NCBI GenBank assembly: GCA_964016885.1
Contig: OZ024757.1
Coordinates: 9,238,001 to 9,302,000, forward strand
Length of the DNA stretch: 64,000 bases
Origin: Eledone cirrhosa
Lineage: Eukaryota
Reading direction: 5' to 3'
The notes below the pieces were generated by a model. The model did not search any database, was not told where the DNA came from, and saw nothing but the letters and a program-made list of their open reading frames with translations. Within the stretch, counting starts at the first letter, position 1. Each line of letters starts with the position of its first letter. Below, one piece after another: positions 33,695-35,787 of this stretch. A program made the position numbers and the translations under genes.

Positions 33695-34310
33695 TTACTG
33701 TAACAGAGAATGTTGGTGTTACCCTCTAAAATTTCTGAGACTAGACACTCACAGCAATACCTCAGATGATAGAGGGTCCCTCCAATTACACACTACAACA
33801 GGGAATGTTGGTGTAGGGCTCTAAAATGTATCATAGCAGAGAAGACATTACCTCAGGTGATAGAGGGTCCCTTAATTACACACACTCTAGGAGGGAATGT
33901 TGGTGTAGGCCTCTAAAATTTAACATAGCAGAGAAGACATTACCTCAGGTGATAGAGGGTCCCTTAATTACACACTACAACAGGCAATGTTGGTGTAAGC
34001 CTCTAAAACTTTTCATAGCAGGTGAGAGACGGTCTCTTAATTACACACACTATAGGAGGGAATGTTGGTGTAGGCCTCTAAAATTCAACATAGCCCTAGA
34101 AGGCAATAACTTAGGTGATAGAGGTCCCTTAATTACACACACTATAGCAGGAAATGTTAGTGTTGACAAACCAAGGCTGAACTTTCTGGCATAGATTTAA
34201 AATTAATTCAAAAAGTCAAGAATAGATCAGAGAAAGATTTTAATTTCAAATGAAAATAAAATACCTCAGGTGATAGAGGGTCCCTTAATTACACACTACA
34301 CCAGGGAATA
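33695..34310. repeat. Diverged monomers of the 85-bp satellite family (~5-6 units of variable length)
   Basis: Contain CATTACCTCAGGTGATAGAGGGTCC and ACAACAGGGAATGTTGGTGT, as in the 1-25 kb array and in the same orientation. Confidence 0.9.
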
Positions 34311-35787
34311 GGGTTTCTCCCCAGTCTGTGTCCTTTTATGTATGGTTAAAGAACTGCTCTGTACAAACACTTTCCCACATATTTCACAATGATAGGGTTT
34401 CTCACCAGTGTGTGTGCTTTTGTGTACAGTTAAAGAAGGGCTTGTTACAAAAGATTTCCCACATATTTCACAGTGATAGGGTTTCTCACCAGTGTGTGTT
34501 CTTTTGTGTACAGTTAATGACTGCTTATTACAAAATATTTCCCACACATTTCAGTGATAGGGTTTCTCTCCAGTATGTGTTCTTTCATGTGTAGTTAAGA
34601 CATCACTCCTCCCAAAATATTTCCCACATATTTCACAATGATAGGGTTTCTCTCCCGTATGTGTTCTTTCATGTGTAGTTAAGACATCACTCCTGCCAAA
34701 AGATTTCCCACATATTTCACAGTGATAGGGTTTCTCTCCAGTGTGTGTTCTTTTGTGTACAGTTAAAGAAGGGCTTGTTACAAAAGATTTCCCACATATT
34801 TCACAGTAACAGGGTTTCTCTCCAGTATGTGTTCTTTTGTGTACAGTTAAAGAAGGGCTTGTTACAAAAGATTTCCCACAGTGATAGGGTTTCTCTCCTG
34901 TGTGTGTTCTTTTGTGTTTAGTCAATGCACCATTACTGCCAAAAGATTTTCCACTTATTTCACAATGATAAGGTTTCTCACCAGTGTGTATTCTTTTATG
35001 TTCAGTTAAATGACTGCTTGTTACAAAAGATTTCCCACATATTTCACAGTGATAGGGTCTCTCTCCAGTATGTGTTCTTTCATGTGTAGTTAAGTCATTA
35101 CTCCTGCCAAAAGATTTTCCACATATTTCACAATGATGGGCTCTCTCTCCAGTGTGTCTTTTTTTATGTATAATTAAATGACTGCTTCTTACAAAATATT
35201 TCCCACATTTATCACATTGATAGGGTTTCTCTCCAGTGTGTCTTCTTCTGTGAACTAAAAGTACAGCACTATCAGCAAAATATTTCCCACATATTTCACA
35301 GTGAACAGGTTTCTCTCCGGTGTGAATACGTATATGTCTAACAAGATTAGCTTTCTCAGCGAAAGTTTTCCCACATATTTCACAGTGAAATGGTTTTTTC
35401 CCACTGCGACTACGTAAATGCCTAATTAAATTGGTATTTTGGCTGAAAGATTTCCCACATGTTTCACATTTGAAAGGTTTTTCTCCAGTGTGTGTTCTTT
35501 TGTGGTTAGTTAAATCACCACTCTAACTGAAAGATTTCCCACATATTTCACAGTGATGGGGTTTGTCTTTAATATGTATGTGTTTGTGTGTAGATAATTC
35601 ATCTTCCGATGAGAAAGTTTTCCTACAAATCTCACAGCTATATTCAGGAATATTTCTGCAATAATGATCCTTGTTCAGTACATGTTTCACTAGGTAAAGG
35701 TTTGTCACCACTGTATGCCTGTGTAACTCTATCTATATTGGTAGAAACAGGTGTGGTAGAAATGTCCAAGTGTTTAACGTCCTCCAT
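34296..35787 (-). pseudogene. C2H2 zinc-finger array gene ZF-C (~16 fingers), disrupted
   Basis: Track ORFs 35523-35711, 34551-34925 and 34296-34547 share one frame, interrupted by TAG (35523) and TGA (34551). One finger has a 9-bp deletion (YHC---GKSF). A putative leader MEDVKHLDIS... from ATG 35787 is out of frame with the fingers. Confidence 0.9.

What the first reader, a model, noticed from the sequence alone, without database searches (positions are those of the whole stretch)
33695..34330. Diverged monomers of the 25-kb satellite are fused to the 3' end of a zinc-finger gene and supply its stop codon
Seen: variable-length monomers of the 85-bp family lie 9 kb outside the main array, immediately 3' of ZF-C. 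The last monomer (ATACCTCAGGTGATAGAGGGTCCCTTAATTACACACTACACCAGGGAAT, ~34261-34309) runs without spacer into the final linker, so the frame ends TGEKPY-SLV* with satellite-encoded residues. ZF-A points into the homogeneous array from ~1.5 kb away in the same orientation. Inference: this satellite family is associated with the 3' ends of these ZF genes, and the small diverged cluster could be the seed of the large array. ZF genes and satellite might duplicate together, or read-through transcription might make satellite RNA.
Basis: partly seen in the sequence, partly recalled or inferred. Interest (0 to 1): 0.75.

Follow-up and report, generated by a model that had tools for sequence, protein, structure and literature searches.

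The report
Repeat hitchhiking on zinc-finger gene copies
A short repeat sits just behind one subfamily of zinc-finger genes and has been copied around the genome with them; here it is joined to a gene that is already broken, so it does not end a working protein, and the neighbouring 71-kb satellite likely grew in place from a sister copy, not from this one, which is mostly ordinary repeat evolution.

Summary
The sequence is as described: diverged ~90-bp monomers at 33702-34167 and a half monomer (34261-34309) that abuts a zinc-finger linker, giving TGEKPYSLV*. But ZF-C is already broken by a frameshift (~35660), TAG (35525-35523) and TGA (34553-34551), so that stop ends no full protein here. 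The cluster is a variable-number repeat in the 3' flank of a duplicated C2H2 cassette: 17 of 18 clusters picked by the repeat core have finger DNA 0-225 bp away on the same side (background 0.4%). The fusion is shared by 13 near-exact copies; 1 of 17 fused copies checked (G000:C1) has an intact 444-aa frame ending in the repeat's stop. The seed idea fails: the 70.8-kb array keeps the flanks of a sister cassette, whose short arrays are 96-100% identical to it, against 67-77% for this cluster. ZF-A's closeness to the array is a one-off junction. Transcription is untested. I recall, but could not read, a report of such repeats beside octopus C2H2 genes. The scan's notes held nothing on this sequence.

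The parts
1..24997 (+). Right third of a 70.8-kb array of 85-bp units (starts 45.8 kb upstream of the window); an in-place expansion of the repeat in a sister ('type C') cassette
24998..25063 (+). 66-bp remnant of the type C cassette flank, 90-97% identical to the flank of five unexpanded siblings
25064..25068 (+). Unique junction (4-nt filler) joining the type C flank to the 3' flank of ZF-A; the finger DNA that follows in siblings is missing here
31846..32103 (+). 100-bp tandem repeat (2.6 copies), distal part of the same cassette flank
32334..33485 (+). 72-bp tandem repeat (16 copies; 1 to about 18 in paralogues), part of the cassette flank
33486..33701 (+). About 200-bp unique flank; holds an AATAAA on the gene's strand at 33546-33541 (predicted poly(A) signal, present in 28 of 29 paralogues, where the neighbouring bases are about as conserved)
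33702..34167 (+). Cluster of about 5 diverged monomers (73-93 bp), 67-77% identical to the nearest large-array unit; 2-11 monomers in paralogues
34168..34260 (+). AT-rich spacer, shared with unfused (type A) paralogues
34261..34309 (+). Half monomer fused to the last finger linker; 44 of 46 bases match the third monomer; gives codons S-L-V and TAG (34298-34296) on the minus strand
34310..35787 (-). ZF-C, a C2H2 pseudogene: ATG at 35787, 1-nt insertion near 35660, TAG 35525-35523, TGA 34553-34551 in a scrambled finger

Best explanation
The cluster is a variable-number repeat in the 3' flank of one C2H2 zinc-finger gene subfamily that was copied around the genome with those genes, and the fused half monomer is likely the scar of deletions in a lineage that is now mostly pseudogenes. 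Shown: the cassette order (fingers, ~180-bp tail, spacer, 2-11 monomers, unique flank, 72-bp and 100-bp repeats), its spread to many places by duplications of uneven length, the shared fusion junction, the broken state of ZF-C, and that the 70.8-kb array is one sister cassette's repeat grown from a few units to 821 between its original flanks. Inferred: the first deletion joined a finger linker to monomer 2 at a 2-bp microhomology (type B0, of which one copy is intact and ends in the repeat's stop); a second deletion between tandem cassettes at a 3-bp microhomology put that end in front of another copy's spacer (type B, this locus). Inferred: unit numbers change by unequal crossing-over or slippage, and the repeat is a passenger without a function of its own. 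Predicted: in intact members it lies in the 3' UTR.
For: 25 of 25 distinct loci found with the cluster have a finger array on the same side and strand (30 loci, 5 overlapping). 21 of 22 loci found with the array's left flank do too, and the last one does on a longer stretch. 17 of 18 clusters picked from the first 100 of 820 core matches have finger DNA 0-225 bp away, against 30 of 7040 background samples. Shared blocks with the window run from about 4 kb to over 18 kb with uneven ends. Junction: 13 copies with at most 1 mismatch, control 0, plus two that lack 20 more bp and one diverged copy; an independent second fusion on C12. Microhomologies ATT and AT at the two ends. Type B left flanks mix with type A, B0 flanks form their own clade (100/100). 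Breaks are shared: the TAG by three loci, the TGA by four. Array siblings L074-L079 carry 3-7 cores (one about 20) between the same flanks, units 96-100% identical. The monomer has no Rfam match, no folding above shuffles (z -0.05 to -0.59) and no detectable finger ancestry (z -0.2 to 0.9).
Against: The order of the two junction events is not resolved (deletion-deletion about 0.55; deletion with a templated insertion, then recombination, about 0.35); the flank tree has few well-supported forks. One fused copy has an intact 13-finger frame, so the fusion is not confined to dead genes. The repeat persists at a fixed place across sub-lineages whose units differ by 25-30%, which a function could also explain. 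Unfused copies are often broken too (5 of 14 intact), so fused copies (1 of 17) are not clearly worse. Some frameshifts could be assembly errors. Genome searches score only the best candidates (40 of 313), so counts are lower bounds. One core-picked cluster (C8, 2.7 kb) has no finger DNA on the expected side.
Confidence: 0.8

Rival explanations
1. The 33.7-kb cluster is the seed of the large array and supplies ZF-C's working stop codon.
For: Same family, same strand, 9 kb apart; the tail frame does end in a repeat-derived TAG.
Against: Units are 67-77% identical to the array and sit in another clade (100/100), while type C short arrays are 96-100% identical and share both flanks. ZF-C has three upstream breaks, two of them shared with paralogues.
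Confidence: 0.04
2. The half monomer is a templated insertion copied from monomer 3 at a break that deleted the gene's tail (polymerase-theta-type end joining, recalled), and type B0 came later by recombination between monomers.
For: 44 of 46 bases match monomer 3, about 320 bp away; 2-3-bp microhomologies at both ends; one public contig joins monomer 2 to the half monomer.
Against: B0 keeps the family's majority base in the last finger where type B differs, has its own more diverged flank and holds the only intact frame; it is not nested in B. This rival changes only the order of events.
Confidence: 0.35
3. The repeat is a functional element of the subfamily: a 3' UTR regulator or an array of binding sites that draws heterochromatin to finger arrays and limits their recombination.
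For: Fixed place and strand across diverged sub-lineages; an AATAAA lies beyond the cluster in 28 of 29 copies; zinc-finger proteins are reported to target satellites and other ZNF genes, and ZNF clusters carry H3K9me3 (PMC10547256, passages).
Against: Copy number ranges from 1 to 821, no structure signal, absent from ZF-A/ZF-D-type genes, kept equally at dead copies; bases beside the AATAAA are as conserved as the hexamer.
Confidence: 0.12
4. The monomers ride in a non-autonomous transposon (Helentron-type) that happened to insert behind ZF genes.
For: Such carriers of short satellite arrays are described in oyster (PMC7492417, abstract); one array on C8 stands without finger DNA on the expected side.
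Against: 17 of 18 clusters keep the same distance and strand to finger DNA; duplicated blocks include the gene and have uneven ends; no inverted repeat pair that brackets the cluster among the 25 longest of 69 shown.
Confidence: 0.04

Closest known systems
70-90-bp tandem repeat enriched in the flanks of Octopus bimaculoides C2H2 ZNF genes (Albertin et al. 2015, Nature 524:220; recalled, text not held; seen only as a reference)
   Same: Tandem repeats of 72-92 bp beside clustered C2H2 genes in a 3.0-Gb genome that I read as octopus-like (inference; C2H2 expansion and clustering in octopods: passages of PMC9068888, PMC9795677, PMC6279123).
   Different: I could not compare sequences or confirm the wording. 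Here the repeat is placed at a fixed 3' position of one subfamily, and one copy is traced to a 70.8-kb array.
Beta-satellite blocks in the human 19p12 KRAB-ZNF cluster (Eichler et al. 1998, Genome Res 8:791; title seen in reference lists; content recalled; not held)
   Same: A satellite that is part of the unit duplicated during ZNF cluster growth.
   Different: Unrelated sequence and lineage; no KRAB domain among the 25 of 29 Pfam matches shown for the intact paralogue; here the short arrays appear to come first and the long array second.
Satellite life cycle 'dissemination of short arrays, then local amplification' (Ruiz-Ruano et al. 2016, PMC4935994; passages)
   Same: Many short arrays at scattered places and one large array grown at one of them.
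   Different: The carrier is identified here as gene duplication rather than transposition or rolling circles, and both original flanks are still readable.
Helentron-borne satellite-like arrays of Crassostrea gigas (PMC7492417; abstract and outline)
   Same: Short arrays between conserved flanks in a dispersed family.
   Different: Here the flanks belong to a gene cassette with uneven duplication ends, not to a defined mobile element.

Membership tests
C2H2 (Kruppel-type) zinc-finger gene | Tandem C2H2 fingers with TGEKPY-type linkers | tested here: met
   PF00096 E 2.7e-59 and PF13465 E 1.5e-89 for the ZF-C frame
Intact protein-coding gene ending in the repeat (ZF-C) | Open frame from ATG to the repeat-derived stop | tested here: not met
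   Frameshift, TAG and TGA upstream; met only by the paralogue at G000:C1:1153584-1154918
85-bp satellite family of the large array | Sequence homology of the monomers above chance | tested here: met
   E 1e-25; 67-77% global identity; core pattern 820 matches, control 0
Seed of the large array | Closest relative of array units, sharing its flanks | tested here: not met
   Type C siblings are 96-100% identical and share both flanks; this cluster is in the other clade
Disseminated-then-amplified satellite (PMC4935994) | Many short arrays at scattered loci | tested here: met
   263 of 820 exact cores lie outside the large array, and related clusters were seen on more than ten contigs
Disseminated-then-amplified satellite (PMC4935994) | Large array grown at the site of a short one | tested here: met
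   Both flanks match unexpanded siblings
Octopus C2H2-flank 70-90-bp repeat (Albertin 2015, recalled) | Unit of about 70-90 bp enriched beside C2H2 genes | tested here: met
   Units 72-93 bp; 17 of 18 versus 0.4%
Octopus C2H2-flank 70-90-bp repeat (Albertin 2015, recalled) | Same sequence as the published repeat, in an octopus | not testable with these tools
   Paper and supplement not held; no homologue of the N-terminus found
Satellite derived from finger-coding DNA | Monomer aligns to the 84-nt finger unit above shuffles | tested here: not met
   z -0.2, 0.7 and 0.9 against 150 shuffles; the 80-bp repeat at 30350 scores z 12.7 in the same test
Ribozyme satellite / retrozyme | Hammerhead or other Rfam motif, stable fold | tested here: not met
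   0 Rfam matches at gathering score in 31500-36500; folding z above -0.6
Helentron non-autonomous element | Fixed ends and insertion independent of host genes | tested here: not met
   Tied to finger DNA, uneven block ends; empty sites were not surveyed
Transcribed 3' UTR repeat | RNA covering the monomers | not testable with these tools
   No RNA run was available through; only a predicted AATAAA

The most novel reading that the evidence does not exclude
A large satellite was born from the 3' UTR repeat of a zinc-finger gene family: the repeat stays short while it is part of a transcription unit and runs away once a deletion cuts it off from its gene (the two longest arrays seen, 70.8 kb and 2.7 kb, have both lost their finger DNA; attached ones seen are at most 1.7 kb), and in the intact C1 paralogue it has been exapted as stop codon and 3' UTR of an expressed 13-finger protein.
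Probability: 0.2. Interest if true: 0.6.

Novelty: new member of a known kind. Interest (0 to 1): 0.3.

Why it matters
As it stands, it is a clean worked example of how a satellite arises: gene duplication scattered a short repeat, and one copy grew more than 100-fold between flanks that are still readable, so ancestor-like siblings and product can be compared directly. It also gives a marker for one zinc-finger subfamily in a genome full of them. The headline claim, a satellite giving a gene its stop, is trivial in effect (three residues, chance-level stop) and holds for one paralogue only. It would matter more if gene attachment limits array size, or if the repeat marks these genes for silencing.

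Tried and rejected
Monomer as decayed finger DNA: a 7-bp resemblance suggested it, the profile test rejected it. Structured RNA or ribozyme: none. ZF-A as the array's own gene: rejected. Expression: no RNA holder listed; this is no evidence either way. Cross-species age of the fusion: a search with residues 1-62 of the intact paralogue gave 3 candidates and none at E 0.001; no related genomes are held. A count of distinct clusters failed because locus files carry no coordinates. Literature: nine searches listed no paper that describes this repeat or fusion; Albertin 2015, Eichler 1998 and two Genome Research ids were not held, so they and their supplements may already cover it. A contrast of 5 of 6 intact unfused copies against 1 of 17 fused ones was dropped because I chose those six for their long frames; the fair figure is 5 of 14.

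Full report
What is in the window. Bases 1-24997 are an 85-bp tandem array; C2H2 finger arrays lie at 26463-27240 (minus, ZF-A), 34310-35660 (minus, ZF-C) and 49062-49757 (plus, ZF-D). The window is G000:C18:9238001-9302000 of a 3.0-Gb assembly. I read it as octopus-like from genome size and the clustered C2H2 arrays; this is inference, and a homologue search gave nothing.

The observation. An array dimer matches 33702-34167 at 69-79% (best E 1e-25) and 34262-34309 at 81%. A 94-bp spacer separates the two. The half monomer abuts the last linker and the frame reads TGEKPYSLV*. That frame is an 84-codon tail behind TGA 34553-34551; the 323-codon frame before it starts behind TAG 35525-35523 and has no methionine; the family's ATG (35787, MEDVK...) is shifted out of frame by one extra base near 35660. 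The TAG is shared by L001, L005 and L006, the TGA by L001, L006, L025 and L026, which argues against sequencing error. So ZF-C is a pseudogene and the repeat's stop ends no full protein. Any fusion into the cluster meets a stop within 3 codons in 30% and within 10 codons in 67% of 300 positions.

What the cluster is. A search with the cluster gave 49 matches (40 of 313 candidates scored). All 30 loci returned (25 distinct) have a finger array on the same side and strand. They share one layout: 100-bp repeats, 72-bp repeats, a 200-bp flank, 2-11 monomers, the spacer, then either a 180-bp tail (type A, 14 loci) or the half monomer (type B, 11 loci), then fingers. In type A the long frames checked stop about 250-320 nt before the spacer. 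For a sample not chosen by the cassette I used a 19-nt core: 820 exact matches, control 0, 557 of them in the large array. Of 18 clusters taken from the first 100 listed places (every distinct cluster on C1, C6, C8, C9, C10 and C12, and four new ones on C18), 17 have finger-derived DNA 0-225 bp away on the expected side; background in twenty evenly spaced 10-kb stretches of the C18 cluster region is 30 of 7040. The link is subfamily-specific: 0 of 30 ZF-A-type flanks carry a monomer within 1.5 kb. Blocks shared with seven paralogues run from about 4 kb to over 18 kb with uneven ends, as segmental duplication would give.

The fusion. The junction occurs 13 times with at most one mismatch; two more copies lack a further 20 bp, and one diverged copy was found on C18. 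Four of the 13 and the diverged copy (type B0) join the linker straight to monomer 2 with no spacer. A second, independent fusion lies on C12. Of 17 fused copies read over the gene, one is intact: G000:C1:1153584-1154918, 444 aa, 13 fingers, ending TGEKPYSLM*. Of 14 unfused copies 5 are intact (six read over the whole gene, eight seen broken in the shorter loci), so the difference is not strong. The half monomer's ends show microhomologies of 3 bp (ATT) and 2 bp (AT). Type B left flanks mix with type A, while B0 flanks form their own clade. I infer two successive deletions, B0 first; a templated insertion followed by recombination remains possible.

The large array. It spans 70.8 kb, 821 units, with 5.3% mean difference among the 85-mers sampled. 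Both ends keep cassette flanks. A search with the left end found siblings with the same flanks at 88-97%: L074, L075, L076, L078 and L079 with 5, 4, 7, 7 and 3 cores, and L077 with a 1.7-kb array. Their units are 96-100% identical to array units; the window cluster's are 67-77% and fall in the other clade (100/100; bootstrap not fully settled, 59 rows, 90 columns). In siblings decayed fingers follow about 160 bp on; here the flank stops at 25063 and joins ZF-A's 3' flank, a junction found once in the genome. Two duplicated blocks that hold ZF-A and ZF-C have no monomer in the 10 kb beyond. The array is therefore a sister cassette's repeat grown in place, and ZF-A is a chance neighbour.

Function. 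The monomer shows no finger ancestry, no Rfam match and no folding signal. An AATAAA beyond the cluster in 28 of 29 copies predicts a 3' UTR position in expressed members; an ATTAAA in the spacer of some copies could end transcripts earlier. This is untested. The most likely reading is a passenger.

What is known. I recall that Albertin et al. 2015 reported a 70-90-bp tandem repeat enriched beside octopus C2H2 genes and likened it to beta-satellite in human ZNF clusters; I could not read it, nor Eichler 1998 (title in reference lists). I read passages of PMC4935994 (dissemination before local amplification), PMC10547256, PMC9795677, PMC9068888 and PMC6279123, reference-list passages only of PMC2443715 and PMC12220107, and the abstract of PMC7492417. 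Nine searches listed nothing on this repeat. Earlier notes of the scan held nothing by sequence or nearby.

Verdict. Real sequence, largely ordinary biology. The association with finger 3' ends stands; the seed and the working stop at this locus do not. New member of a known kind, interest 0.3.

Noticed in passing
window 30350-30821: An 80-bp tandem repeat (about 6 copies, 92% alike) is derived from finger-coding DNA (z 12.7, nhmmer E 1.9e-21): a finger unit that lost 4 bp and was then amplified out of frame.
   Followed up: partly
   Followed up: partly
G000:C8, about 33808340-33811030 (L175): A 2.7-kb array of a 75-bp variant of the monomer, followed directly by part of a 72-bp unit and with no finger DNA on the expected side: a second detached expansion.
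   Followed up: partly
window 26463-27300 and 49062-49757: ZF-A has an in-frame TAA at 27140-27138; ZF-D is its inverted paralogue (flank 93% identical) with an open frame.
   Followed up: partly
window 1-24997: A longer variant unit recurs at spacings of 4069, 4409, 4069 and 6182 bp, a sign of higher-order blocks; autocorrelation peaks weakly at 49-52 and 98 units.
   Followed up: no
L009, L010, L016, L020, L022, L024, L028: Many unfused members end at a TAG in place of the linker's glutamate codon, in some with further fingers in frame behind it; if the animal is a cephalopod, A-to-I editing could read such stops through (recalled, untested).
   Followed up: no
window 42200-45400, 51970-53950, 55600-58130: Frames that look like reverse-transcriptase and endonuclease pieces of non-LTR retrotransposons (RTE-like and CR1/L2-like by my recall; not scanned).
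   Followed up: no
window 60171-64000: A 20-bp tandem repeat with strong strand skew (193 copies, 77% alike) runs off the window's end.
   Followed up: no
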